Assembly (NCBI GenBank): GCA_021826505.1
Contig: JAKAZV010000004.1
Coordinates: forward strand, 1 to 62,714
From: Acidobacteriota bacterium
GTDB taxonomy: Bacteria; Acidobacteriota; Terriglobia; Terriglobales; SCQP01
Reading direction: 5' to 3'
DNA length: 62,714 nucleotides
Part shown: piece by piece, positions 1 to 37,324 of the stretch
Numbering within the stretch: the stretch's first letter is position 1
Layout of the letters: each line of letters starts with the position of its first letter
Notes under the pieces: generated by a model
What the model was told of the DNA's origin: nothing
Seen by the model: the letters and a program-made list of their open reading frames with translations, nothing else
Databases searched by the model: none
Position numbers and translations under genes: made by a program

Positions 1-201
1 TCGCTATGCAGCGTTGGAACATACTTTTGACAAAACCTTCGGTTTTGTCAAGGCTCGGCGATCCTCAGGTACATCGGTGTACATTGCGGTCGCCTCGCGG
101 TTTCCGCCTGGCTCTGCTCGCTTCTCTCTGAGCGCTCCGCATCGTTCGTCGGTGGAGGGCCGGGACTTAACAAACAACCCCGGCCTTTCCACTCGATACG
201 G
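1..201 (+). repeat. Palindromic intergenic repeat, copy 1 (left end cut by window edge), with extra internal hairpin and downstream second stem-loop
   Basis: Shares gctcggcgatcctcaggtacatc..gtacattgcggtcgcctcgcggtttccgcctggctctgctcgcttctctctgagcg with copies at 1791 and 8440; contains ttgacaaaacc-ttc-ggttttgtcaa hairpin. Confidence 0.85.
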
Positions 202-24746: not shown

Positions 24747-26906
24747 TTAGCGCCGCTTCCAGTTTAAACGATAAATTTCATTCAGCCCCCGCGCGCGGGT
24801 GACCAGGGGGCGATTATGCCAGTCCAATCCGCTCCAGCCATCCACCAGCCAGCCATAACGATTCAAGCTGACGATTTCATGTAGTTTTCCCGTCGCCGGG
24901 CTATAGCGAAAAAAGCCCAGATTATTGCCGCGGGTGTCGAAATAAAGTTCATTCCCCCGACGCGACCAGACGGGGTTGTCCACCTGCCGGATCGGCGTCA
25001 TCCGCCAGCGCCGTCGGCGGATTGAATAGATGACCAGCCGCTGCGAACGCTGGCGCAGGGCGGCAATCCAGCGCCCATTGGGCGACCAGCGCGCCGTCCA
25101 TAATCCCTGAGAACCGGGCAGTGTCGTATGCGTGCGCTGCGCGAGAGTGTAAATATGGATGCCGCTGGGACGGGGGAAATCTCCATTGGGGTTGGGCAGA
25201 TCCCCATAAACCAAGCGTTTTCCATGCGGCGACCAACTGGCAATTCCCACATTGATGCCGGTTCGCGGCAATTCCCGTAAATTGCGATCGGCCAGGGTGT
25301 AAATAAATAAATGCCAGGGTTGCGTTGCACCCATGCGCCCGCGAATGACCAGGCGATCACCCCGCGGCGACCAAGCTAATCCTTCGCTGTCAAAGGGAGT
25401 AAAGGTGATTTCCCGGGCTCCGGTATTGCCGTGCCGGGCAATCCATACACTCCGTCCCTCCTGGCCCGTCAAGGCGTAGGCAATCCTTTGATCGTGGGGA
25501 GAAGATGCCACCCAGAGTGCGCGCATGCCCCCCAGATAAGGCTCAAATTTCCCCAGCCTAGCCCGGTAACGCATCAACTGCGGCATGGTGGACTTGCCTA
25601 TAACCAATAATTTAGATTTTCCCGGCACCGGAGTGGGCGATTGAAACCCGATTGGACCGGAGGCAAAGTCACGCCACTGATGGGCGCCCCGCGGCATGAC
25701 CGCGATTCTGTAGGGAAATGACTGCATTTTGTCATAGTATTGAAAAAAATAATCGCTTCCGTGGCCGGTCCAGCTGCCACAACAGGCATTGATACTGCGG
25801 GGCGTCAGCGGCCGCGGGGCAGCATTTTTGAGCCGCAGGGAAAGTTCCCATATACGGCTATTTCCCGCGGACATATTCCCCGTGGTATAGCGCAATTGCC
25901 GCCCATCCGGACGCCAGCGTATCCACCAGGGAGTTTGCCCTGCCTGACACAGCAAGCGAGAGGATAAACCCCGAACGCTGGTCATGCGCAGCTGATGCCG
26001 CCAGCTATAGACAATGCGTTTGCCACCGGGCGACCAGGCCGCCGCACGTGCGTATATTCCGGGAATAATGTGGGGATCATCGCTGGGCAGATTGAGCATC
26101 CATAATTGCCCATGCGAGCCGCGATCCGTGGCCAGAATATGCAAGCCGTCGCGGGAGATATCCTGAAAATACAAGTCCGGCAGCAACGCCACCATGGGTT
26201 CCGGCGTGCCACCTTCGATGCCGGTAAACATCAAGGTGTGACCGGCCCGCCGCTGCTCGGAAAAATAGATCCGGGTGCCATCGGTGAGCAGGGGAACGGA
26301 GCGTATATTTCTGGTTTTGACCCGACCATCCGCGGTGATTTGATCGTAATTTTCCAATTGCGGCCAGTGCGGGCGATGGCTGTAATGCCACAGTGCGGCT
26401 CCGCCCAAGAGCAGCAATAAAATCGCCGCTCCGGCCCATAATGCCCACCACCCTCTTCTTTTTTGCTGCCCGGTCCGCTCAGGGGCCATCCACGCCGGTG
26501 TTTCCTCCTGGCGGGAGGCCGTGGGCCGGGGAAGGTTCGTATCGGCAAGGGGATAGAGGGTTTCAACCGGAGCGATAAACCGGTATCCCAGGCGCGGCAG
26601 GGTTTCTATATACCGCGGGTTTTCCGCCGAGTCGCGCAAGACTTGCCGGATGCGGTTCACCGCCGAATTTACGCTGTTATCAAAATCGACAAACGTATCC
26701 GGCGGCCATAACCGCGTGCGGATTTCCTCACGCGTGACCAAATTGCCCGCTTGCCCCAAAAGCAGAGCAAGTAATTGGCCCGGCTGCTGCGCCAGCCGCA
26801 CCCGGACTCCATTGCGACGCAATTCCTTCGTTTCCAAACTCAGTTCAAAAACGCCAAAGCGGTATCCAATCTGATCTTTATCTGGCGTCGTGGACGCTTC
26901 TGGCAT
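24747..26906 (-). CDS. CadC/ToxR-type transmembrane transcriptional regulator (winged helix + TM + PD40/TolB-like beta-propeller)
   Basis: YRFGVFEL..VTREEIR..LW..FVDFDNS..YIETLPRLGYRFIAPV, one TM helix, repeated WSP.G blades; ORF open to 26969. Confidence 0.88.
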   Translation of the reverse strand: MPEASTTPDKDQIGYRFGVFELSLETKELRRNGVRVRLAQQPGQLLALLLGQAGNLVTREEIRTRLWPPDTFVDFDNSVNSAVNRIRQVLRDSAENPRYIETLPRLGYRFIAPVETLYPLADTNLPRPTASRQEETPAWMAPERTGQQKRRGWWALWAGAAILLLLLGGAALWHYSHRPHWPQLENYDQITADGRVKTRNIRSVPLLTDGTRIYFSEQRRAGHTLMFTGIEGGTPEPMVALLPDLYFQDISRDGLHILATDRGSHGQLWMLNLPSDDPHIIPGIYARAAAWSPGGKRIVYSWRHQLRMTSVRGLSSRLLCQAGQTPWWIRWRPDGRQLRYTTGNMSAGNSRIWELSLRLKNAAPRPLTPRSINACCGSWTGHGSDYFFQYYDKMQSFPYRIAVMPRGAHQWRDFASGPIGFQSPTPVPGKSKLLVIGKSTMPQLMRYRARLGKFEPYLGGMRALWVASSPHDQRIAYALTGQEGRSVWIARHGNTGAREITFTPFDSEGLAWSPRGDRLVIRGRMGATQPWHLFIYTLADRNLRELPRTGINVGIASWSPHGKRLVYGDLPNPNGDFPRPSGIHIYTLAQRTHTTLPGSQGLWTARWSPNGRWIAALRQRSQRLVIYSIRRRRWRMTPIRQVDNPVWSRRGNELYFDTRGNNLGFFRYSPATGKLHEIVSLNRYGWLVDGWSGLDWHNRPLVTRARGLNEIYRLNWKRR

Positions 26907-27113
26907 AGCAATACCGTTCTTTATGCTGGATTGATTTGACAGTATAGGGCAAGGCTCCGAGTTAAGCAAATCATGTAAATAAATGAAAAATAAGCACTTG
27001 TCAGGTGAGATGTTTTAAATCATGCATTATTGTCAAAATAATCCTCTGCCCATTGCATGTTCCCTGTCCGGCTTGCATGCTCATCTCCGTCGGGAGTATC
27101 GGGAGGGATTTTC

Positions 27114-30011
27114 ATGCATCTTCGTCTCAAGTCCAAAGCCTGGTTTGGATCGGTAGAGCCTGAGTATGGAAGGAGCATTGCGAAACCGGTTAGGGCAAAA
27201 ATACAAATGGCAGTCCCGCTATTGTTTGCCTGTCTTGCAGGGGTGAGCATACTTGCAATGGCCGGTTGTGGGGGCGTCGGCACCAATTCGACCCCCAATC
27301 CTCCAGCCGACAACCCAGTTCCCAGCATCAGTTCGCTCTCTCCGGCTTCTGTCACGATGGGCGCGGCGGCACAAACCCTTACCATAAATGGCACAGGATT
27401 CATCCCCACATCGAGCATAACTTTTAACGGCAATGCATATACCGTCAGTTATGTGAGCGCCACTCAATTGACCATTCCATTAGGGGCCAGCGATCAGGCA
27501 ACCGCAGGGACGTATGCCGTCGTGGTCAGCAATCCCTCCCCAGGGGGCGGAGTCTCCAATAGTGTCAATTTCATCGTCAACAACCCGGTTCCGGCCATTA
27601 CCGCCATCAGCCCTAATGCCACTTTTCCCTGTAATCCACTGGCCCTGGTCACCATTACCGGTACGCAATTCATGCCCGGCGCCAGCGTGACTTTTAATGG
27701 CAGCCCCATTGCTGCGACCGTAGTGAATGCAACCACGATCACCCTGGCCCTGGACAGCTCCCTGATTGCCACACCCGGCACCCCAGCCATCGTGGTCACC
27801 AATCCATCCCCTGGCGGCGGGCCTTCCAACCCGGCTGTGTTTACCATCAGCACGCCCAGTGGCCCCGGTTTAAGCGGGAAAACCGAACTCACCGCCAATA
27901 TTTATGTTTATGCCCTCAATGCGGATGGCAGCAATGGCCAACTCCTTTGCACCGGGGCCAGTGACGGCAATGGCAATTTCAATATGACGCTCGATGCCCC
28001 CATTAACGGCGGGATTCGCCTCGATTCGAGCGGCGGACAAGTCGTTTACCAGAATAATCCGCCGCTTAATTATCCGCAAACCAGTGATGATACAGCCATT
28101 TTCGATACTGTCTCCAGCAGTATCAGCAGCATTGATCTCGACCCCATCAGCACCCTGGCAGATGCCATGACAGTGGGGGAAATGCAGATGCATCAGACCA
28201 GCGAGACGGGAACACATTCAATGGTGAATGCCCAACTCAGCTATTTTTTTCTATTCCATCCCGGCAATAGCGGCTATCCTCCGCTGGAACTGCAACCTGC
28301 CGATCCCAGCAATCAGAACCAGCGTATCGCCGCGGTGCAAGGCTGGCTGACGGAAGGTTTGTCGCTCAACCCAAATTCACCGGATGATATTTATTCCGCA
28401 CTGGATCAGGACATTCGCGATGGAATATTTGACGGTTGGGACGGCGCCAGCAGAATCAGTCTGGACAGCGGCAATGAGCCGGTCACGGCCGGAACCACGG
28501 ACTATCTGAGCGGAGCAGCGCAGTGGGTGCAAGGCCCAGGCGCTCAAGTGCTGCCTTCCGGCACAGGCTCCGCTACCCTGGCCGCGTTAACCAAAGGAGT
28601 GACGGCTAACGTTACCTTATTCACTCCTTTTGCCGATGGATTAGTTCCCAGCAGCACCGGAGCCATGACCACACTGGCACTCCAGGGTCATCAGTATCTG
28701 CTCATCAACGATCTCAATAATCAGAACGCAACTCCAAATACCGACAGTATTATCGTCATTGATGTTACCGATCCCACACATCCGGGCATACCCATTGAAT
28801 GGCAAACGCCAGAATTAAATAATTGGACAGTCGCCGGCGCAATCAGCGGCGGTATTGCCGTTCTGGCGGGAAATAGCGGCCATCCGCAAGTATTTGTTTA
28901 TGACGAAAGCGGGCGCGCCGCCTTGCTCAATGCTTCAATTCTCGTCAATGGCGTTCCAGGAACGGATCAGCCGGTTGACTATTCCGGCGCCCTGGCCATC
29001 TCCGGCTCAATTCCAGTTTTCAGCGATGCCAGAGTACTTTCAGGTGCCGCCTGGGACGGCTGCTGGCTGGGCTGCCAGATCGAGCTGGCCAGCGCCGATG
29101 GCTATGTAGATTTCACCCTTGCCAGCAATTCTCTCGATGAGACGCATGCCTTCCCGGTGCTGGATCCAACCGAAACCGCAGCCGAAAGCATGGGACCCGA
29201 TATCGCCCATTACAGCGGCTACCCTTTATTGCTGGCCGGCAATGCAGGCGGCATGCAACTGGTGGACTTTACGAATCATTCTTCTTTTTTTCTCAATGAC
29301 AGTCAGTTCCATACTTATTTTCCTCATTTTCCTTATGCCGGCTTCCAAGGAAATGATGATGTAGATGCCAATACCGCCGACCTGAGCTATGAAATCGGCG
29401 TGCTTACGCCCGAACAGGGGCAGGGTACGACCAATCCCTATATTGGACTCTATGATATAGGCAATATTAGCGAAACACCCGCATCCGGCGGCAATCTTCC
29501 GACCTTCAGTTTTTCACCAGGAAACACTCTGGAAATACCTATTTCCAGCAATAATAATCTGGATTTTACCGGTGCCGCTGTGGATTCCGACTCGCATACG
29601 CTTGCATTGAGCGGCTCGTTTTCCCATAGCGATATCGCCCTGGGGCAAATCCAGAACCTGAATAATTTAGCAAATGGCCAAAACTGGATCGGGCTCACCG
29701 ATTGGGTTTTTCTCAATGCCGCCGCATCCAGCGGTTTAAGCCAATTCATGAACCAGGGCGATCCGCCAGGGGTGATTGCCTTCACCAGCCTGGGCGCGAT
29801 AAACGCTAAAACCAAAGGCATCAGTTATGGATACATGCTGGATGCCTCCGGCCGCGGCGTGCTGCAGGTAGATATCAACGGACTGCTGGCCATGCCGCGT
29901 CAAGGCGCGGCCGGTTCGGGCGATCCCGCTCACCAGGTTACAGGCGATCCGGCCACCACCAACGACGCACTAACCGGCGCGCCCATTTTGACTGAAATCA
30001 CCTGGCCCTGA
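27114..30011 (+). CDS. Large lipoprotein with two IPT/TIG domains and uncharacterised C-terminal region
   Basis: GGAGG RBS, lipobox MAGC (Cys codon 27267), tandem NPVP.I..LSP..TI.GT.F..V.NPSPGGG.SN repeats; alternative start 27207. Confidence 0.75.
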   Translation: MHLRLKSKAWFGSVEPEYGRSIAKPVRAKIQMAVPLLFACLAGVSILAMAGCGGVGTNSTPNPPADNPVPSISSLSPASVTMGAAAQTLTINGTGFIPTSSITFNGNAYTVSYVSATQLTIPLGASDQATAGTYAVVVSNPSPGGGVSNSVNFIVNNPVPAITAISPNATFPCNPLALVTITGTQFMPGASVTFNGSPIAATVVNATTITLALDSSLIATPGTPAIVVTNPSPGGGPSNPAVFTISTPSGPGLSGKTELTANIYVYALNADGSNGQLLCTGASDGNGNFNMTLDAPINGGIRLDSSGGQVVYQNNPPLNYPQTSDDTAIFDTVSSSISSIDLDPISTLADAMTVGEMQMHQTSETGTHSMVNAQLSYFFLFHPGNSGYPPLELQPADPSNQNQRIAAVQGWLTEGLSLNPNSPDDIYSALDQDIRDGIFDGWDGASRISLDSGNEPVTAGTTDYLSGAAQWVQGPGAQVLPSGTGSATLAALTKGVTANVTLFTPFADGLVPSSTGAMTTLALQGHQYLLINDLNNQNATPNTDSIIVIDVTDPTHPGIPIEWQTPELNNWTVAGAISGGIAVLAGNSGHPQVFVYDESGRAALLNASILVNGVPGTDQPVDYSGALAISGSIPVFSDARVLSGAAWDGCWLGCQIELASADGYVDFTLASNSLDETHAFPVLDPTETAAESMGPDIAHYSGYPLLLAGNAGGMQLVDFTNHSSFFLNDSQFHTYFPHFPYAGFQGNDDVDANTADLSYEIGVLTPEQGQGTTNPYIGLYDIGNISETPASGGNLPTFSFSPGNTLEIPISSNNNLDFTGAAVDSDSHTLALSGSFSHSDIALGQIQNLNNLANGQNWIGLTDWVFLNAAASSGLSQFMNQGDPPGVIAFTSLGAINAKTKGISYGYMLDASGRGVLQVDINGLLAMPRQGAAGSGDPAHQVTGDPATTNDALTGAPILTEITWP

Positions 30012-30054
30012 ACATCCTTTTTTGAGTCATACGAGCCATCGCAAGGAAAAAACG

Positions 30055-33000
30055 ATGAAAAAGCAAACCCTCGTTACCGTATATGCCATGATCTGCTGGT
30101 TGGGAATTACCGGACTGGGGCAGAAAAGCGCCCCACACCGGCTGAACCCGCATGTGATGCCCAAAGTCGAGCGACTGCGCCAGCAAGCCGCCCTATGGAG
30201 CATTCATGAACGCACGATCGATCACATGCCACCAGCCTGGCACCGTTTGCGGGCGGTGCGGGAAGCCCGGCATTTGCCCTACGTGATTCGCCCCGCGCAG
30301 CGAAGGCTGTACAGTTCCGGACCGGCGGAGGCCACGGCCTGGACTTTTCAGGGCCCCCAGCCGATCAGCACATTTCAAGCCGGCGAATCGTTTGGCGATG
30401 ACGGCAATGTCTCCGGCATTGTTTCCGCCATCGCCGTGGATCTTACGAACGACCCAACCGGCAACACCGTCTATGTCGGGACAACGTATGGCGGTGTCTG
30501 GAAAACGATTAATGCGCTGAGTGCCAACCCCAGTTTCACGCCGATCAGCGACGCCACACAAACGCTGGATGTGGGCGCCATCGCCCTGGGCCCGGATAAC
30601 GCCCAGGGCCAGCCCATGCTTTATGTGGGCACCGGCAAATGGATCCAGGATACCTATCAGGGCATGGGAGTACTGGAATCCAGCGACGGCGGGTCCACCT
30701 GGACCCTTATTTCTTCGGCTGATAACGGGGCGGAGCAGTTCGCGGGTCTTTCCGTCACCCGTATTCTGGTGGATCCCAGCAACACGCAGATCGTCCTCAT
30801 GGCCACGGCGTATTCAATCGACTCGCTGCCGGGGCAAGCGCAAGGGCCAAATGCCGGATTGAATAATATTGCCGGCGTCTATCGCTCCACCGATGGCGGC
30901 AAAACCTGGAGCAAGGTTTTATATAACCCCGACTGCACCGATATGGCTTATGACGCCAGCACGCATACATATTATGCAGCCCTGACCGGAAACGGCATCT
31001 ACGCCTCCGCCGACCAGGGGCAAACCTGGACGCTGCTGGCTGATCCGCTTGCAAACGGGACGACAATTTCAAACAGCAATTTTTTTGCCGTCTCCCTGGC
31101 GGCACAGAACGGCAAAATCTACGCTCTCATCGCCAACCCTCAGGATTCGATTGGAAATTTGTCCGCACCCACCCCCTGTTCCAATCCCGGGGCGGCCAAT
31201 TTAAGCGGCTGCGATACCGGTCTGGTGGTATCCGCAAATGGCGGACAAAGCTGGACGCCGCTTCCGGTCCCCACACAGGACAGCGACGGCTATACCGATG
31301 CCAACGCACTTTTCTGCGAGCCCGGCACGAATGGCGCCGATTGCCAGGGCGATTATGACCAGGCAATCGCGTTGACTCCCGATGGCAATACCCTGTTGAT
31401 TGCCGGCATAGACGACTGGGCGCTCAACCTCGGCACACAAACTTATTCGCAAATCACCAATGGCTATGCAAAGTTAAGCGGCGAGGTCCACACCGATCAG
31501 CACGCTATCGCAGTCGTGAGCAACTCCACCTGGTATGTGGGCAATGATGGCGGCGTATGGGTCACCAGCGACGCCGGCGGCGTCAGTAACAGCACTCCCG
31601 GCCAGAGCAGCGACTGGGCCGATCTGAACGCCACCCTGGGCGTGACCACGTTTTACAGCGTGGCCCAAGTGGAGAATATCGCGAATAATCCCATCCCAGC
31701 GGGCGGCGCACAAGACAACGGCACGGATTACGCCGGGGCAAATACCAGCTGGCAGCAGGAAGAAGGCGGCGACGGGGGCTTTACCGTATCCGATCCGAAT
31801 AACCGGCAGGAATTTCTGTTTGAAGAAGATGGCGGCGGAGCCGTCGGCCTCAATGCGACTGCTACCTCGACCCAAATGGATTACTATTCGCCCATCGTAG
31901 ATAAAAAAACGATCACCGACTGGGCGACTGCATCCGGTGCGGGATCGCTGGTTTTTCCATATCAATTTGTGCCCAGCAACAGCACGCAACTGGTGCTGGC
32001 GAGCGGCTGCCGGGTCTGGACCGGGCCGGATGCGCAAAATCCGACGCAGACGCCCGCCCCCGGCTGGATGGTGATCAGCAATGATCTGACCACCAGCAAT
32101 ACGGAAGCCGACTGCAACAATTCCCAAGGCATTCTGCTGGCCCTGGCCGTGGCGCCTTCTTCGCCGGCTACCATCTATGCCGGCGCATTGAACGGAAAAT
32201 TATGGGTCACTTCCAATGCTACCTGTGTCAGCGCCTCACCCGCCTGTTCGCTGCCCACCTGGACAGAAATTAATGCCGGGCTGCCCGCCGGAACGCCCAT
32301 CAGTACCATCGCCGTCAACCCCACGCAGCCGCAAACCGTGCTGGTGAGTTTATGGGGCTATGGCACCGGCCATGTATTTCTTTCCACTAATGGCGGCACT
32401 TCCTGGACCGATATCAGCGGGAGCGTGGGCAATGGAGGTTTGCCCGATGCGCCGGTTAACGGTGTTGTACTCGACCCCAACAATTCCAATGTGATCTACG
32501 CCACCACGGATGTGGGCGTATTTGTCGCCACCGATGGCGGGGCCGGCGGCGCCGGGGAGCAATGGCAGCAACTCGGCCCGAAACTGCCCGATTGTCCCGT
32601 CATGCAGCTGCAATTTTCTCTGGATGGCAAAACCCTGATCGCCGCCAGCTTCGGCCGCGGCGCCTGGACGATCCCCGCGCTCGGCGCCAGCAGCAGCGGT
32701 TCGAACACGCCGGATTTCAGCCTCAGCTTGTCTTTGGCGACGCAGACCATCCCCGCAGGGACTGGAGCCAGCCTGACGGTTACCACCAGCGCAATCAACG
32801 GCGACACCCATAACATCACGCTCAGTTGCACTGCCCCGGCATCAGGATGCACATTCAATCCCGCCAGCGTGGCGCCCGGCGCCTCGAGCACATTAACGAT
32901 CAGCTCCGGATCTCTGATCGCCGGCAGCAACACGGTCAGTGTCAGCGGCACCGACGGCACCAACACGCATAGCGCGAGTGCAACCGTCACCGTCAGCGCC

Positions 33001-34659
33001 GCGGCCGTAAACGATGGCTTTACCGGCAATCTGGTGGCTGTAGCCGGAGGCGGCGTGACCCAGCCCTCGACCGGCCCTGTTGCCGCCAACCAGATCAAAT
33101 TGACCATCCCGACCCAAATTGCAACTGATAGTTCCGGTAACGTTTATATGCTCGACAATAACGGGACCTTGGTTGAAGAATACAACGTCTCAAACGGGAC
33201 CATCAGCGTCATTGCCGGCTGCGGCCAGAGCTGCAGCGGCTCGCCCACGGCCAGCCCTCAACCGGCCACTTCCATCAGCCTATGGAATTCAGTCAGCGGC
33301 AACGGGGCGACAGGCATCCTGGTGGACAGCGCTGACGGCCTTCTCGCCATTGCCGATAATGCCCACAATACCGTGGATGTAGTTGCATTGAGCAACGATC
33401 AAATGGTTGCCTATGCCGGCTGCATCGTAAATACCACCAACTGCAACAATCCCGGCGCCACACCAGCTCCGGCGGATAACGTCAGTTTTCAATCGGTGAA
33501 TGGAATCGCCCTGGATGGCAACGGCAACCTCTATATAGCCGACGCCATTGGCAACGTGGTGGATGTGGTCAATACCAGCCTTACTACCCCGACGATCCAA
33601 ATTGCGGTTGGCGGGGGTCAGGCGTCGCTGAGCAACAGTCCGCAACCGGCCACTTCAGTCGCCCTGGGCAATCCCAGCGACATCACGGTGGACGGCGCGG
33701 GTAATCTGTACATCGCCACCAGTCTGGTGAATAACGTGGAGGTCAGCAAATACAACCCCACCAACCAGCAAGTCCAAATCTGGGCCGGGGATGGCTCTGT
33801 GGTCGGCAATCCTGCTTCCGCCACCCCCCAGCCAGCCACGGCGGTCGGGATGAATCCCGCGGGCCTGGCCACTGACACGCAGGGTGATCTGTACATTTCC
33901 AGCACTAACGATGTGACGCCGACCGCCAACCAGGTTTTCCGCGTGGATTCCAGCGATCAATTAACGCTCCTGGCCGGCGGCGGCCCATCGCCCACGAGTT
34001 ATACCCCGCAGCCGGCGACCAACACGGATATCAAAGCCGTCGGCCTGGCGGAGGATGCCAACGGCAATCTCTATCTCGCCGATATCGCCAACCAGATGCT
34101 GGCGGAGATGCCGAGCTCGAACCCGCCACCGGCCAAGCCCGATTTCAGCCTGACGGCCACCACGAGTTCGGCCAGTATCAATGCCGGCACTACGGCCACT
34201 TACAGCCTGACGGTATCGCCGGTCAATGGGTTCAGCGGCAGCGTGAATTTAGCCTGCAGCGGCGCACCCAGCCTGGCCACGTGCAGCATTTCTCCCGCCA
34301 CCGCGACGCTCAGCGGCAGCAATGTCACAGCCACCGTGAGCGTCGCCACCACAGCCGCTTCATTTACGCCGTTGTGGACTCCGCCGTCCACGGGCCAGCC
34401 GTTCCTGCCGCTGATTTACTACGGTTTTTCGCTTGCGGCAAGCCTGGCATTATTCCTGTTCAGGAGAAAATGGGCTCGCCTGGCGGGAATCGGAGTCTTA
34501 CTCGCCGCCAGCATCGCCTGCGGCGGCGGCTCCAGTCCCGCGCCCAGTCCTTCTCCGTCCAGCAATCCGGGCACACCGGCGGGCACGTATACCCTGACGG
34601 TCACCGGAACTTCGGGGAGCCTGAGTCACTCCACCAGCCTGACGTTAACCGTGAACTGA
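30055..34659 (+). CDS. Large exported protein: BNR/VPS10-like propellers, Ig-like domain, NHL-like repeats, C-terminal TM-split Ig-like domain
   Basis: Signal peptide; Asp-box repeats S.DGG.TW; HTDQHA..GNDGG, GGAQDNG; DGNGNLYIAD repeats; C-terminal hydrophobic hairpin. Confidence 0.8.
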   Translation: MKKQTLVTVYAMICWLGITGLGQKSAPHRLNPHVMPKVERLRQQAALWSIHERTIDHMPPAWHRLRAVREARHLPYVIRPAQRRLYSSGPAEATAWTFQGPQPISTFQAGESFGDDGNVSGIVSAIAVDLTNDPTGNTVYVGTTYGGVWKTINALSANPSFTPISDATQTLDVGAIALGPDNAQGQPMLYVGTGKWIQDTYQGMGVLESSDGGSTWTLISSADNGAEQFAGLSVTRILVDPSNTQIVLMATAYSIDSLPGQAQGPNAGLNNIAGVYRSTDGGKTWSKVLYNPDCTDMAYDASTHTYYAALTGNGIYASADQGQTWTLLADPLANGTTISNSNFFAVSLAAQNGKIYALIANPQDSIGNLSAPTPCSNPGAANLSGCDTGLVVSANGGQSWTPLPVPTQDSDGYTDANALFCEPGTNGADCQGDYDQAIALTPDGNTLLIAGIDDWALNLGTQTYSQITNGYAKLSGEVHTDQHAIAVVSNSTWYVGNDGGVWVTSDAGGVSNSTPGQSSDWADLNATLGVTTFYSVAQVENIANNPIPAGGAQDNGTDYAGANTSWQQEEGGDGGFTVSDPNNRQEFLFEEDGGGAVGLNATATSTQMDYYSPIVDKKTITDWATASGAGSLVFPYQFVPSNSTQLVLASGCRVWTGPDAQNPTQTPAPGWMVISNDLTTSNTEADCNNSQGILLALAVAPSSPATIYAGALNGKLWVTSNATCVSASPACSLPTWTEINAGLPAGTPISTIAVNPTQPQTVLVSLWGYGTGHVFLSTNGGTSWTDISGSVGNGGLPDAPVNGVVLDPNNSNVIYATTDVGVFVATDGGAGGAGEQWQQLGPKLPDCPVMQLQFSLDGKTLIAASFGRGAWTIPALGASSSGSNTPDFSLSLSLATQTIPAGTGASLTVTTSAINGDTHNITLSCTAPASGCTFNPASVAPGASSTLTISSGSLIAGSNTVSVSGTDGTNTHSASATVTVSAAAVNDGFTGNLVAVAGGGVTQPSTGPVAANQIKLTIPTQIATDSSGNVYMLDNNGTLVEEYNVSNGTISVIAGCGQSCSGSPTASPQPATSISLWNSVSGNGATGILVDSADGLLAIADNAHNTVDVVALSNDQMVAYAGCIVNTTNCNNPGATPAPADNVSFQSVNGIALDGNGNLYIADAIGNVVDVVNTSLTTPTIQIAVGGGQASLSNSPQPATSVALGNPSDITVDGAGNLYIATSLVNNVEVSKYNPTNQQVQIWAGDGSVVGNPASATPQPATAVGMNPAGLATDTQGDLYISSTNDVTPTANQVFRVDSSDQLTLLAGGGPSPTSYTPQPATNTDIKAVGLAEDANGNLYLADIANQMLAEMPSSNPPPAKPDFSLTATTSSASINAGTTATYSLTVSPVNGFSGSVNLACSGAPSLATCSISPATATLSGSNVTATVSVATTAASFTPLWTPPSTGQPFLPLIYYGFSLAASLALFLFRRKWARLAGIGVLLAASIACGGGSSPAPSPSPSSNPGTPAGTYTLTVTGTSGSLSHSTSLTLTVN

Positions 34660-34668
34660 GGCGGAAAC

Positions 34669-36219
34669 ATGTTTTGGAGTGCGACAAGCCACGCAATCAC
34701 GCGGAGATGGGCGGTGATAGCCGCTCCATTCATATGGATGGGCGCGGCGTGGGCGCAAAGCTATCTGGGAGTGCGGGTGCGCCCCTTGCCGGTCAATCCA
34801 AATCGCCCCTCCCGCCTGCTTGTCTTACAGATTGAACCGGGCTCACCGGCAGCGCGAGCAGGGCTGCATGCAGACGATGTCATCGTGAGAATCGCCGGGG
34901 GGCCGGCCCGCCTGCGAAGGCTCCAGGCACAGGAGAAAGCCCCGGCCCATATGCTGCTTCTGCAGCTGACTCATGGCCGCGCGATTCAGGCGCAAACGAT
35001 CGCCCTTGCTGACTGGTGGCGCACTTTAAAAAAAAGGGCGGCGCACGGCCAGGCAGCAGCCATGGGTGAATTGGGAATCGAGATGGTGGCCCATCACCAG
35101 AACCGGGCCGGACTGACCTGGCTGCGCCTGGCCGCCCAGCGGCACGATGCCCCGGCGGAAACCTTGCTCAGCCTCTATAAAATGCGCTTCGCGCATCCCC
35201 CGCAAATCGCAGCCGGACTGCGTCTGGCCCGTCAGGCGGCGGCACAAAAGTACGCACCGGGAGAGTTCTGGCTGGGGCTTTTACGACAAACCACGGTGGC
35301 CGGCCCCATCAACTATATCCGGGCTCATGAATGGTTTCTGCGCGCAGCGGCGCACAACAGCGCCGGCGCGAACTACCAATTAGGAGAGCTGAATTACTAC
35401 GGACGCGGCCAGCCGCGAAATTATAAATCAGCCGCCTCCTGGTACCGCAAAGCCGCCGTCCGCGGCTGGCCAGCCGCGGAATACCGCCTGGGGTATATGC
35501 GCTGGCATGGCCTGGGCATGCGGCAAAATTTCACCCGCGCGCTCTATTGGCTCAACAATGCGGCGCAGCAGGGACACGCGCCCGCCGCTTTTTTATTGGG
35601 CCTGCTTTACAGCACCGGGCATGGGACGCGAAAAAATCCCGCCCTGGCGGCACGCTGGTTTCGCCTGGCCGCGCACCATGGCCTCGCGCCCGCCCAATAT
35701 CTGCTCGGCATGGATTATGAAACCGGCTGGGGCATCACGCAAAATCCCGCGCGCGCGGCTTATTGGGATGCCAAAGCCGCGGCCCAGGGCTACGCTCCGG
35801 CGCGAAAGGCTCTGACGCGCGTGCAGGCCTATTTACGGGCAGCTCGCTCGCAAGCTTCTTCCCGGGGGAATACCCAGCCGGCGCACACCGGCGGCATTCT
35901 GCGGGGCAAATATTTTCACATGCTCGGCCCTACTACCACCGAGATTTTCCATTTCCATGCCGATGGCACCTATTCCCGCCTGCGCATCATCGTGAACGCC
36001 GGTTTTAGCTCGCGCCAGCGCATTCTGGGAATTTACCGCATCCAGGGCAACCAGATCACTTTACATTTTCAACAGGCTCAAACCGCTACCCTGACCGGCC
36101 GCAGCGCCACGGCGGGCCAAAATGCCTACGCGGGCCAGCAAACATGTAAATTCAAACTTTTACCCCCCGGCCGAGGGCTGAATATTTGCGGTGTCCACCT
36201 AGATGTCTATCATTTTTAA
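34669..36219 (+). CDS. Exported PDZ + Sel1-like repeat protein
   Basis: Signal peptide AWA-Q, YLGV..PGSPAARAGL..DVIV PDZ, repeated W..AA..G...A...LG Sel1 units. Confidence 0.8.
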   Translation: MFWSATSHAITRRWAVIAAPFIWMGAAWAQSYLGVRVRPLPVNPNRPSRLLVLQIEPGSPAARAGLHADDVIVRIAGGPARLRRLQAQEKAPAHMLLLQLTHGRAIQAQTIALADWWRTLKKRAAHGQAAAMGELGIEMVAHHQNRAGLTWLRLAAQRHDAPAETLLSLYKMRFAHPPQIAAGLRLARQAAAQKYAPGEFWLGLLRQTTVAGPINYIRAHEWFLRAAAHNSAGANYQLGELNYYGRGQPRNYKSAASWYRKAAVRGWPAAEYRLGYMRWHGLGMRQNFTRALYWLNNAAQQGHAPAAFLLGLLYSTGHGTRKNPALAARWFRLAAHHGLAPAQYLLGMDYETGWGITQNPARAAYWDAKAAAQGYAPARKALTRVQAYLRAARSQASSRGNTQPAHTGGILRGKYFHMLGPTTTEIFHFHADGTYSRLRIIVNAGFSSRQRILGIYRIQGNQITLHFQQAQTATLTGRSATAGQNAYAGQQTCKFKLLPPGRGLNICGVHLDVYHF

Positions 36220-36250
36220 TGCCGGCATGCAGCTTCAGCCAGAATGCACA

Positions 36251-36327
36251 TGGTGGGCGATATCCGGCTCGAACGGATGACCTTCTGCTTGTAAGGCAGA
36301 CGCTCTAACCAACTGAGCTAATCGCCC
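36251..36327 (-). tRNA. tRNA-Val(UAC)
   Basis: Reverse complement GGGCGAU..UCUGC-CUUACAA-GCAGA..GUUCGAGC..AUCGCCC-ACCA; 77 nt. Confidence 0.97.
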
Positions 36328-36421
36328 GGAGATTCTCATATTGTAACGAAAGGCGAAAAGATGCAAGCCAACATTGGAGCGGAGGCAATCTAGCGTGAAT
36401 TGAGGCGCATACTGAACATAT

Positions 36422-37324
36422 ATGAACGCTGCGGCTGGATTGTGGCGCATGCGCAAAAAATGGCGGCTGGGCTGGATCGGATTGCTGGCGATGTGCCTGT
36501 CGCCGGCATGGGGGCAAAATACGGCGGGCAGCGCCCGCGCCTCCGGGCAAGCGGCGGCAAAGGCTAAAAATTCCAAAGGCAAAAAACACCGGCAGAAGCC
36601 GCGGCGCGCCGACACGCTGGATTTTTGGCAAGGCTGGAAGGGTCTGGGCAGCCTTGGTTATAACCTCAGCACCGGCGATACCCAATCGCTCAACTTAACC
36701 GCCAACCTGGATGCCGAACGCCGCAGCGGACCGCCAAAGCATCCGGACTGGACGACTCATGCGGATGTCATTGCCCTATGGGCGCATTCCTCTAACGCAT
36801 CCGGCGCCGTTATCCGTTCCGACACTTTCACGGGCAGCCTGCGCCAGGACTACCATCTCAACACGCGGCAATTTGTCTATGCCATGGCGCAACTGGAGCA
36901 TATTCAGCCGGAGAGTATCGCGCTGCGCCAGTCCTATGGAGGTGGGGTGGGACAACGTCTGCTCTTTACCCCCCGCGCGCAGTGGAATGCCTTGCTGGGA
37001 GTGGACTGGACCCGCACCCGTTTTACCCCAACGGTGGGACTGCCGGCCGGAACGGCCCTCTTGCGCAACGCGGCGGAAGCTCAGGTGGGAGAAACGCTGA
37101 AAATCAAACTGGCGAATCATCTGCGGCTGGCGCATGAGTTCAGTTATTTCAAAAGCCTGAACCAGGCGGGCGCCCGTTTTGAGACATCCTCGATTCTGGC
37201 GGTTCCGATCAGCCGGCATTTCAATATCAGCTTCAACTTCGATGATTATTATCTAACGCAGCCGTTGCCCGGCCATCATGCCAATAACGCCACATTGTCG
37301 GCCGGCCTGGGCGTTAAATTCTAA
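36422..37324 (+). CDS. DUF481-like outer-membrane beta-barrel protein
   Basis: Signal peptide, W.G...LGY..STGDT, amphipathic strands, C-terminal GLGVKF. Confidence 0.7.
   Translation: MNAAAGLWRMRKKWRLGWIGLLAMCLSPAWGQNTAGSARASGQAAAKAKNSKGKKHRQKPRRADTLDFWQGWKGLGSLGYNLSTGDTQSLNLTANLDAERRSGPPKHPDWTTHADVIALWAHSSNASGAVIRSDTFTGSLRQDYHLNTRQFVYAMAQLEHIQPESIALRQSYGGGVGQRLLFTPRAQWNALLGVDWTRTRFTPTVGLPAGTALLRNAAEAQVGETLKIKLANHLRLAHEFSYFKSLNQAGARFETSSILAVPISRHFNISFNFDDYYLTQPLPGHHANNATLSAGLGVKF

What the first reader, a model, noticed from the sequence alone, without database searches (positions are those of the whole stretch)
34138..34659. Ig-like domain split by a TM hairpin with an internal lipobox: candidate new anchoring signal
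Seen: the protein has two copies of one Ig-like unit. The first (32710-32997: PDFSL..TLSC..CTFNP..STLTISSGSL-IAGSNTVSVSGTDGTNTHSASATVTV) is continuous. The second (PDFSL..NLAC..CSISP..TATVSVATTAAS) is interrupted before its last two strands (PAGTYTLTVTGTSGSLSHSTSLTLTV). The interruption is a TM helix, RRKWAR, a second hydrophobic helix ending ASIA-C-GGGSS (Cys codon 34519), then a Pro/Ser linker. The basic-hydrophobic-lipobox order is a complete type II signal peptide, like the N-terminal MAGCGG of the neighbouring lipoprotein. Inference: Lgt/LspA lipidate and cut internally, yielding a ~46-aa lipopeptide that holds the 1500-aa passenger by beta-strand complementation, possibly allowing outer-membrane transfer after the first helix is cleaved. 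I recall similar tails in acidobacterial proteins but know of no described mechanism.
Basis: partly seen in the sequence, partly recalled or inferred. Interest (0 to 1): 0.8.

Follow-up and report, generated by a model that had tools for sequence, protein, structure and literature searches.

The report
Catalogued "lipo-invert" tail splitting an Ig domain
The end of this large exported soil-bacterium protein is a membrane hairpin carrying a lipoprotein-type cysteine signal, inserted into a loop of its last Ig-like domain; NCBI curators already list this tail type as a putative anchor, but nobody has tested it.

Summary
The 1545-aa ORF (window 30022-34659, +) ends in an Ig-like domain whose last two strands are separated from the rest by a linker, a TM helix, RRKWAR, a second helix, Cys1500-GGGSS and a Pro/Ser linker.

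The tail is not new. It matches NCBIfam NF058595 'invert_tail' (lipo-invert putative C-terminal anchoring domain) over the full model, 89.1 bits against a cut-off of 37. This scan has already reached the same family on at least eight other genomes. I found no paper on it.

- The Cys is present in 218 of 218 distinct homologous tails.
- Position -1 is A/G/S in 205 of 218.
- AlphaFold2 places the last two strands in the sandwich at pLDDT about 98. The trimmed model superposes on contiguous Ig-like domains at Z 13.
- Lgt, LspA, Lnt and LolA each have one match over the cut-off in the genome.

Points against: only 66 of 218 tails fit the strict lipobox, and the window's S-I-A-C does not. No dedicated peptidase or conserved neighbour was found. 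Processing itself is untested.

Best reading (about 0.55): internal Lgt/LspA processing leaves a 46-aa lipopeptide that holds the passenger by completing the Ig fold.

The parts
30055..30123 (+). Probable N-terminal Sec signal peptide of the passenger (MKKQTLVTVYAMICWLGITGLGQ), starting at Met12 of the ORF
   Evidence: Read from the translation and judged by eye; no signal-peptide predictor was available. The 3 other full-length tail-bearing ORFs of the own genome also begin with a basic-then-hydrophobic segment.
30124..32709 (+). Passenger part 1: BNR/Sortilin-Vps10-type beta-propeller region
   Evidence: Pfam PF15902 (38 bits, cut-off 33) and PF02012 BNR (32.1 bits, cut-off 27). NCBIfam F510_1955 glycosylhydrolase is partial and below its cut-off, 77 against 175.
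32710..32994 (+). Ig-like copy 1, continuous
   Evidence: BLASTP against both halves of copy 2: E 2e-8 and 8e-6.
32995..34137 (+). Passenger part 2: NHL/SBBP-type beta-propeller repeats
   Evidence: Pfam PF06739 SBBP (36 bits, cut-off 20.5), PF01436 NHL (25.9 bits, cut-off 20), and PF25021 TEN_NHL just below its cut-off.
34138..34362 (+). Ig-like copy 2, N-terminal strands up to the conserved T-T-A
   Evidence: AF2 pLDDT 97-98, strands E14-83 in model numbering. T-T-A is conserved at 96/82/77% in 218 tails.
34363..34398 (+). Pro/Thr-rich linker 1
   Evidence: Read from the sequence. These are variable columns in the family alignment.
34399..34461 (+). Helix 1, putative stop-transfer TM helix (N-out, C-in)
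   Evidence: 21 uncharged residues, mean Kyte-Doolittle 1.72. AF2 helix 104-119 of the model at low pLDDT.
34462..34479 (+). Basic loop RRKWAR, inferred to be cytoplasmic
   Evidence: Across 217 tails the loop carries most often 4 K+R, and no D/E in 186 of 217.
34480..34518 (+). Helix 2, h-region of the internal type-II-signal-like segment, ending S-I-A
   Evidence: 13 uncharged residues, mean Kyte-Doolittle 2.32. AF2 helix 125-138.
34519..34521 (+). Cys1500, the lipobox-type cysteine
   Evidence: A Cys at this place in 218 of 218 distinct tails; 99% in the hmmalign column.
34522..34575 (+). G-G-G-S-S plus Pro/Ser tether
   Evidence: G at +2/+3/+4 in 185/182/152 of 218 tails. The same C-G-G-[GS] tether is common in candidate N-terminal lipoproteins of this genome.
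34576..34656 (+). Last two beta-strands (F-G hairpin) of Ig-like copy 2
   Evidence: AF2 strands 161-171 and 174-184 at pLDDT about 98. The model range 13..185 superposes on contiguous Ig-like domains at Z 12.8-13.0, rmsd 1.9, 97-101 residues aligned. G-T-P-A-G-x-Y is conserved at 78-99%.

Best explanation
The tail is a member of the catalogued lipo-invert family. It is a cassette of about 70 residues inserted into the short loop that joins the T-T-A strand to the P-A-G-x-Y strand of the protein's last Ig-like domain. The cassette is, in order: linker, TM helix, Arg/Lys loop, signal-peptide-like helix, Cys, Gly/Ser/Pro tether.

Shown here:
- The architecture, and its position at the extreme C-terminus.
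- Invariance of the Cys and the small residue before it.
- Predicted completion of a single Ig sandwich by the last two strands.
- One match over the cut-off each for lgt, lspA, lnt and lolA in the genome.

Inferred mechanism:
1. The N-terminal Sec signal exports the 1450-aa passenger.
2. Helix 1 stops transfer and turns the chain back into the cytoplasm (the 'invert' step).
3. The basic loop stays inside.
4. Helix 2 re-inserts N-in/C-out, exactly like a lipoprotein signal peptide.
5. Lgt adds diacylglycerol to Cys1500, LspA cuts before it, and Lnt acylates the new N-terminus.
6. The resulting 46-aa lipopeptide supplies the two missing strands of the Ig domain, and so holds the passenger non-covalently by a lipid near its C-terminal end.

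Whether the spent hairpin is then clipped off, and whether the complex stays in the inner membrane or moves outward, is open.
For: - Family membership: NF058595 hit over model positions 2-113 of 113, 89.1 bits against a cut-off of 37.
- Position: 219 of 222 full-profile tails end within 5 aa of the C-terminus.
- Cysteine and box: Cys in 218/218 distinct tails; -1 is A/G/S in 205/218; +2 to +4 are mostly G.
- Loop: most often 4 K+R, and no acidic residue in 186/217.
- Tether: the C-G-G-G/S tether equals that of N-terminal lipoproteins in the same genome, including the upstream gene.
- Cis fold: AF2 gives pLDDT about 98 for both Ig halves and 53-67 for the hairpin. The trimmed model aligns 97-101 residues to contiguous Ig-like domains at Z 12.8-13.0, rmsd 1.9. 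That is more than the 73 residues of the N-part alone could give.
- Insertion point: continuous repeats of the same domain join T-T-T to P-A-G-x-Y by 3-5 residues.
- Trans fold of the Ig N-part with the 46-aa piece: weak support. Score 0.60 against a best control of 0.00. The mark was reached by 58 of 80 solved complexes and 2 of 110 mismatched pairs, but scores of 0.60 or under came from only 7 of those 80 and from both mismatches that passed. The runs agree in at least 93% of contacts and the partner's pLDDT is at least 70. My own alignment was used, and since these are halves of one domain the pass may reflect likeness to solved Ig folds.
- Pathway enzymes in the own genome: Lgt 1, LspA 1, one Lnt match over the cut-off, one LolA match over the cut-off.
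Against: - No experiment exists. Searches for 'lipo-invert', 'internal lipobox' and 'NF058595' each found 0 papers.
- Only 66 of 218 tails fit the strict lipobox [LVI][ASTVI][GAS]C, and 147 of 218 fit a relaxed pattern that I wrote from recall. Q, M or W at -3 is common. Q was not seen at -3 in 48 candidate N-terminal lipoproteins of this genome.
- The window's own box, S-I-A-C, fails the strict pattern.
- The distance from the last basic residue to the Cys is most often 19, a full TM span. In the genome's candidate N-terminal set it is 10-19.
- After LspA cleavage the passenger would still carry both helices, so cleavage alone explains no relocation.
- There is no extra LspA copy in tail-bearing genomes: 1 in the own genome and 1 in each of the 15 genomes of the sister family.
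- No conserved neighbouring gene was found.
- AF2 docking in one chain does not show that the two pieces stay together once cut.
Confidence: 0.55

Rival explanations
1. The tail is a plain two-helix inner-membrane anchor. The hairpin tethers the passenger to the periplasmic face of the inner membrane and is never cut. The Cys is either unmodified, or diacylated by Lgt without LspA cleavage, which would add a covalent lipid to a single chain.
For: - Helix 2 is most often 19 uncharged residues, a full TM span.
- The strict lipobox is met in only 66/218 tails.
- There is no dedicated peptidase paralogue.
- The Ig domain folds in cis in the AF2 model, so no cleavage is needed for it.
Against: - One TM helix would be enough for anchoring.
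- An invariant Cys (218/218), a small -1 residue (205/218) and a Gly-rich +2 to +4 that matches this genome's lipoprotein tethers are not expected of a passive helix end.
Confidence: 0.3
2. Helix 1 plus the basic cluster is a sortase-type C-terminal sorting signal, like PEP-CTERM or GlyGly-CTERM. A dedicated sorting enzyme cuts it, and the lipobox part is secondary.
For: - Motif, TM helix and Arg cluster form the tripartite layout of such signals. The layout of MYXO-CTERM is given in the abstract of PMC11980579.
- A moderately conserved Y-A-x-W-L-P-x-x-G (42-71%) sits at the outer end of helix 1.
- The own genome has one exosortase-family gene and two rhomboids.
Against: - No PEP-CTERM or other CTERM model hit the protein at E up to 0.1.
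- Exosortase was not found in 4 of the 15 genomes of the sister family (G032, G048, G062, G075). These are essentially complete (100% by the rounded figure) and carry 3-16 tail matches each.
- No rhombosortase is over its cut-off in the own genome.
- The signal is not at the C-terminus: about 65 more residues follow it.
Confidence: 0.1
3. The arrangement is an artefact: a frameshift or assembly error fused a TM-anchored protein to a small downstream lipoprotein gene.
For: None, beyond the fact that the RRK-to-end part looks like the start of a lipoprotein gene.
Against: - The same in-frame arrangement occurs in 126 of the 150 best cluster representatives and in 73 of 80 loci from named genomes.
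- It occurs in 5 genes of the own genome.
- No stand-alone gene starting at the basic loop was seen among the short representatives.
Confidence: 0.01

Closest known systems
NCBIfam NF058595.1 'invert_tail', lipo-invert putative C-terminal anchoring domain
   Same: Full-length match over model positions 2-113 of 113, 89.1 bits against a cut-off of 37. It lies at the extreme C-terminus and has the same order of TM helix, basic cluster, second helix, Cys and short beta tail.
   Different: Nothing distinguishes this copy from the family. I could not read the curators' text, so I cannot say whether they describe the tail as an insertion inside an Ig-like domain. The family's function is marked 'putative', and I found no paper on it.
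Classical N-terminal bacterial lipoprotein signal (Lgt, LspA, Lnt; type II signal peptide)
   Same: A basic n-region, a hydrophobic h-region, a small residue at -1, an invariant Cys and a Gly/Ser/Pro tether like that of this genome's own lipoproteins. The enzymes are present.
   Different: The signal is internal, about 1480 residues from the N-terminus, and is preceded by a stop-transfer helix. The -3 position is looser: strict pattern in 66/218 tails, and the window has S. The h-region is mostly longer, most often 19 residues.
MYXO-CTERM / myxosortase (MrtX)
   Same: A C-terminal sorting tag with an invariant Cys, a TM helix and a cytoplasmic Arg-rich end. It is predicted to be lipidated and cleaved for surface display (abstract of PMC11980579).
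   Different: There the Cys lies before a single TM helix, and a CPBP protease removes the helix, leaving a covalent anchor. Here the Cys follows a second helix in lipoprotein orientation, and the anchor would be held non-covalently. Haft's preprint on Cys-bearing sorting signals holds none of the words Lgt, invert, Acidobacteri, lipobox or hairpin.
Donor-strand complementation of chaperone-usher pilus subunits
   Same: An Ig-like fold that lacks C-terminal strand(s) is completed by a strand from another polypeptide. Chaperone/pilin entries such as Caf1M:Caf1 were among the structural matches at Z about 10.
   Different: In pili one strand comes from another subunit or from the chaperone. Here two strands would come from a fragment of the same precursor, and that fragment would carry a lipid. 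The comparison is by analogy and from general knowledge; it is not homology.

Membership tests
NCBIfam NF058595 invert_tail | HMM score above the curated cut-off over the whole model | tested here: met
   89.1 bits against 37, model positions 2-113 of 113, protein residues 1436-1545. 96 bits in the six-frame genome search.
NCBIfam NF058595 invert_tail | Located at the extreme C-terminus of a large exported protein | tested here: met
   The match ends at the last residue. An N-terminal signal-like segment was read by eye.
NCBIfam NF058595 invert_tail | Acts as a membrane or lipid anchor | not testable with these tools
   The family name itself says 'putative', and no paper was found.
Type II (lipoprotein) signal peptide | Basic n-region followed by an uncharged h-region | tested here: met
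   RRKWAR followed by 13 uncharged residues with mean Kyte-Doolittle 2.32.
Type II (lipoprotein) signal peptide | Strict lipobox [LVI][ASTVI][GAS]C (pattern written from recall) | tested here: not met
   The window has S-I-A-C, with S at -3. 66 of 218 family tails meet the pattern.
Type II (lipoprotein) signal peptide | Relaxed lipobox (PROSITE-like pattern, recalled): small -1 residue, uncharged -2 to -4, and Cys | tested here: met
   A-S-I-A-C fits. 147 of 218 tails fit, and -1 is A/G/S in 205 of 218.
Type II (lipoprotein) signal peptide | Located at the N-terminus of the precursor | tested here: not met
   The Cys is residue 1500 of 1545.
Type II (lipoprotein) signal peptide | Lgt, LspA and Lnt are encoded in the genome | tested here: met
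   One match over the cut-off for each in the own genome.
Type II (lipoprotein) signal peptide | Cys is diacylglyceryl-modified and the peptide is cut by LspA | not testable with these tools
   Needs lipid labelling, globomycin treatment or mass spectrometry.
PEP-CTERM / exosortase sorting signal | A PEP-type motif model hit, and co-occurrence with exosortase | tested here: not met
   No CTERM model was hit at E up to 0.1. Exosortase was not found in 4 of 15 tail-bearing genomes of the sister family.
MYXO-CTERM | Invariant Cys in a short motif immediately before a single C-terminal TM helix | tested here: not met
   There is no Cys before helix 1; the invariant Cys follows helix 2. The definition is taken from the abstract of PMC11980579.
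Ig-like beta-sandwich fold | A single sandwich formed by the strands before and after the hairpin | tested here: met
   AF2 pLDDT about 98 on both parts. VIA-align Z 13.0 (8jmw_A, 101 aligned) and Z 12.8 (2ber, 97 aligned), rmsd 1.9 for both, over model range 13..185. This is a prediction, not a solved structure.

The most novel reading that the evidence does not exclude
Internal LspA cleavage creates a triacylated 46-aa lipopeptide that stays locked into the passenger's last Ig domain as its two central-to-edge strands. A so far unidentified protease then sheds the spent two-helix module. The 1450-aa passenger travels on its non-covalently bound lipid handle, by Lol or a secretion system, to the outer membrane or cell surface. 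This would be a C-terminal lipid anchor made by strand complementation rather than by a covalent bond. It would be used by an estimated several thousand proteins of soil Terriglobia: one search gives 6553 representatives at E up to 1e-10, an upper bound that also counts continuous Ig repeats.
Probability: 0.25. Interest if true: 0.8.

Novelty: new member of a known kind. Interest (0 to 1): 0.42.

Why it matters
If the inferred processing is real, bacteria can use the ordinary lipoprotein machinery on an internal signal. That would attach a lipid near the C-terminal end of very large exported proteins through a split protein fold.

This would be a route distinct from the sortase, exosortase, rhombosortase, myxosortase and T9SS systems. 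It would be abundant in soil Acidobacteriota: the tail is present in all 31 sampled genomes of the window's order, at 1-21 matches per genome, some of them sub-threshold or partial.

It is directly testable, because cultured carriers exist. The Silvibacterium bohemicum S15 genome has 12 tails.

For this particular window the finding adds one more ordinary member to a family that curators, and earlier passes of this scan, had already recognised.

Tried and rejected
- **Dedicated LspA paralogue.** Rejected. There is one PF01252 match in the own genome and one in each of the 15 genomes of the sister family.
- **Exosortase as the partner for helix 1.** Rejected as a general partner. It is missing in 4 of 15 tail-bearing genomes of the sister family at E up to 1e-5.
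- **Rhombosortase.** Only two generic rhomboids were found, and nothing is over the TIGR03902 cut-off. This is uninformative.
- **Conserved neighbour.**
  - phmmer with the window's DUF481, PDZ-Sel1 and upstream 984-aa proteins against all ORFs of 117 loci found no DUF481 relative.
  - The PDZ-Sel1 protein was found only in the closest relative, L038.
  - Of 95 loci with a tail, 86 have a same-strand downstream ORF within 400 nt. Their largest similarity clusters have 3 members, and one of those clusters is itself tandem tail proteins.
  - Flanks were only 1.5-3 kb and phmmer at 1e-5 misses distant barrels, so this is a weak negative.
- **Natural split genes** (a stand-alone small lipoprotein carrying the two strands). 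None was seen among the 26 representatives of 170 aa or less. Those that start with Met start inside or before helix 1 and look like truncated gene calls. The search was biased towards full tails.
- **Anchored motif search before helix 1.** It gave no sharp motif. Only the profile alignment showed the moderate Y-A-x-W-L-P-x-x-G.
- **First attempt at search for related loci.** The 20-row alignment failed for lack of a conserved stretch. A 5-row alignment worked.
- **Literature.** 'lipo-invert', 'internal lipobox' and 'NF058595' each gave 0 papers. The four-term search 'lipobox' + 'Acidobacteria' + 'C-terminal' + 'transmembrane' found 7 papers, 6 listed, none on this by title or abstract start. 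'internal lipoprotein signal' had 0 occurrences in the 8 papers listed. Subscription journals and supplements were not searched.
- **Genome-wide profiling for a partner protease.** An unbiased phylogenetic profile could not be run with these tools.
Full report
**1. Observation**

The ORF at window 30022-34659 (+) is open for 1545 codons. Met12 (30055) followed by KKQTLVTVYAMICWLGITGLG reads as a Sec signal, judged by eye; no predictor was available.

- Ig copy 1: 32710-32994.
- N-part of Ig copy 2: 34138-34362.
- Linker: 34363-34398.
- Hydrophobic helix 1 (21 aa): 34399-34461.
- RRKWAR: 34462-34479.
- Helix 2 (13 aa): 34480-34518.
- Cys1500 (TGC): 34519-34521.
- GGGSS plus Pro/Ser linker: 34522-34575.
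- Final 27 aa, PAGTYTLTVTGTSGSLSHSTSLTLTVN: 34576-34656.

The two halves of copy 2 align separately to the continuous copy 1. The N-part gives E 2e-8. The last 31 aa give E 8e-6 and align to copy-1 residues 76-100, which are its last strands.

**2. What it is**

Pfam has no model for the tail. NCBIfam does: NF058595.1 'invert_tail', described as 'lipo-invert putative C-terminal anchoring domain-containing protein'. It matches residues 1436-1545 over model positions 2-113 of 113 at 89.1 bits, against a cut-off of 37.

So the object and the general idea (a lipoprotein-type signal placed at the C-terminus behind a helix that inverts the chain) are already curated. I found no publication. 'lipo-invert', 'internal lipobox' and 'NF058595' each occur in 0 papers of the library.

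The scan's own records show at least eight earlier follow-ups on other genomes that reached the same family. I had reached it independently.

**3. Family and distribution**

- The own genome is a 2.75-Mb assembly in 183 contigs, 89.6% complete. It has five genes with the tail over the cut-off.
- In a sample of 201 genomes of the phylum, 18 have a match over the cut-off:
  - the own genome;
  - all 15 of a sister family in the same order (3-21 matches each);
  - one genome of the same class;
  - one partial hit to the last strands only (G045).
- In the remaining genomes of that sample, 72 show only sub-threshold matches, mostly to the last strands, and 111 show none. The unpublished genomes G152 and G024 are among the sub-threshold ones.
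- In the own family, 16 of 16 genomes have the tail at E up to 1e-9. Four of these (G210, G205, G214, G211) are unpublished; without them the count is 12 of 12.
- A pattern scan of named genomes gave 161 relatives, of which 80 were kept. By title, 79 of the 80 are Acidobacteriota/Terriglobia, including the cultured Silvibacterium bohemicum S15. The exception is one record titled Candidatus Aquilonibacter.
- A profile of the last 115 aa found 18526 cluster representatives at E up to 0.001 and 6553 at up to 1e-10 among 1.84 billion. Many of these are continuous Ig repeats that match only the last strands.
- Of the best 150 representatives, 126 carry the whole tail at their C-terminus. So do 73 of the 80 named loci.

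**4.

*Cys invariance.* In 218 distinct full tails, drawn from 221 sequences, 218 have a Cys at the end of the second hydrophobic run. It is 99% in the profile column.

*Residues around the Cys.* Position -1 is A, G or S in 205 of 218. Positions +2/+3/+4 are G in 185/182/152.

*The loop.* It carries most often 4 K+R and has no D/E in 186 of 217 tails. The mature piece has a median length of 44 aa, range 35-77.

*Points against.*
- The strict lipobox is met by only 66 of 218 tails, and a relaxed pattern by 147; both patterns were written from recall.
- Q, M and W are frequent at -3. The window's own box is S-I-A-C.
- The distance from the last basic residue to the Cys is most often 19, a full span. 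The window's is 13.

*Internal standard.* 48 heuristically chosen N-terminal lipoprotein candidates of the own genome show L/A/G/V/T/M/I at -3 and no Q, h-regions of 10-19 residues, and frequent C-G-G-[GS] tethers. This set is noisy.

**5. Fold**

AlphaFold2 on a 20-row alignment of tails gave mean pLDDT 83.4. Blocks of about 97-98 cover residues 11-80 and 161-185 of the 185-aa model. The two helices score 53-67.

With the low-confidence stretch trimmed, the model range 13..185 superposes on contiguous Ig-like domains of about 100 residues:
- Vpr 594-700: Z 13.0, rmsd 1.9, 101 aligned.
- Micromonospora sialidase 404-502: Z 12.8, rmsd 1.9, 97 aligned.

The N-part alone offers 73 residues, so the last two strands must be part of the superposed sandwich.

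Continuous copies of the same repeat in other proteins join T-T-T to P-A-G-x-Y by 3-5 residues. The roughly 70-residue cassette therefore sits in that loop.

A two-chain prediction of the Ig N-part (82 aa) with the Cys-to-end piece (46 aa) gave weak support:
- Score 0.60 against a best control of 0.00.
- The mark was reached by 58 of 80 solved complexes and 2 of 110 mismatches.
- Scores of 0.60 or under came from only 7 of those 80 and from both mismatches that passed.
- The runs agree in at least 93% of contacts and the partner's pLDDT is at least 70.
- My own alignment was used, and halves of one domain may pass by likeness to solved folds.

**6. Machinery and partners**

The own genome has one match over the cut-off each for Lgt, LspA, Lnt and LolA. 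It also has one exosortase-family gene and two generic rhomboids, with no rhombosortase over its cut-off.

LspA is single-copy in all 15 genomes of the sister family, so there is no dedicated paralogue.

Exosortase was not found in 4 of those 15, so helix 1 is not generally an exosortase signal.

No conserved neighbour emerged from 95 tail loci. Here the gene lies between an N-terminal lipoprotein (984 aa) and a PDZ-Sel1 protein, with 10- and 9-nt spacers, and a DUF481 gene follows. Only the closest relative shares the PDZ-Sel1 gene.

**7. Mechanism**

*Shown:* the architecture, its conservation, the predicted single fold and the presence of the enzymes.

*Inferred:* Sec export of the passenger; stop-transfer at helix 1; a cytoplasmic basic loop; re-insertion of helix 2 as a type II signal; Lgt/LspA/Lnt processing at Cys1500; and retention of the passenger by the 46-aa lipopeptide, which completes the Ig domain.

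I put about 0.55 on this, about 0.3 on an uncut or merely lipidated hairpin anchor, and about 0.1 on a sortase-type role for helix 1.

After LspA cleavage the passenger would still carry both helices. Any move to the outer membrane therefore needs a further, unidentified cut, and I give that reading 0.25.

**8. Comparison**

It is a member of NF058595. It works like a lipoprotein signal but fails two defining features of the classical one: N-terminal position and, in this copy, the strict box.

MYXO-CTERM/myxosortase is the nearest published C-terminal system with an invariant Cys and predicted lipidation (abstract of PMC11980579). There the Cys precedes a single helix and the anchor is covalent.

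Of Haft's preprint on Cys-bearing sorting signals I saw only the search listing and a term search, which found none of Lgt, invert, Acidobacteri, lipobox or hairpin.

**9. Verdict**

The novelty claim is not upheld, because the family is curated and was found repeatedly by this scan. This window adds an ordinary member. The open biology, which is directly testable, lies in the family rather than in this copy.

Noticed in passing
window 27057-37324 (+): Operon-like run of four same-strand genes. They are: a 984-aa N-terminal lipoprotein with no Pfam hit (signal ...ILAMAG-C-GG near 27189-27270); the tail protein; a 516-aa PDZ plus Sel1-repeat protein with its own signal-like start; and a DUF481 protein. 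The first two gaps are 10 and 9 nt. A Trans_reg_C plus PD40 regulator lies upstream on the minus strand (24747-26969).
   Followed up: partly
own genome, contig C114:740-1165 (-), loci L003/L008: This tail has a 34-aa basic loop between the two helices, where the family's usual loop is about 6 aa. The NF058595 match is therefore split in two. The loop length is evidently free, as expected of a cytoplasmic loop.
   Followed up: partly
L012, L062, L066 (downstream ORFs of about 370-390 aa): The gene directly after a tail protein is itself a smaller protein with two Ig-like repeats and a complete tail, so tail genes can lie in tandem.
   Followed up: no
L052 / genome handle G219: A 5.5-Mb assembly whose record title says Candidatus Aquilonibacter has 10 tails over the cut-off on 8 contigs. 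NCBI taxonomy places that genus in Vulcanimicrobiota, not Acidobacteriota. Either the label is wrong or the family reaches beyond the phylum.
   Followed up: partly
own genome, contig C98:21980-22285 (+), locus L005: This tail runs about 9 residues past the usual end and repeats the closing V-T-L-T-V motif, as if the last strand were duplicated.
   Followed up: no
family alignment, profile columns 31-39; window 34399-34430: A moderately conserved Y-A-x-W-L-P-x-x-G (42-71%) sits at the outer end of helix 1, and the Gly is near-invariant in the 20-row alignment. Pro and Gly in the outer half of a TM helix could mark a site for intramembrane cleavage or for helix packing. It is unexplained.
   Followed up: no
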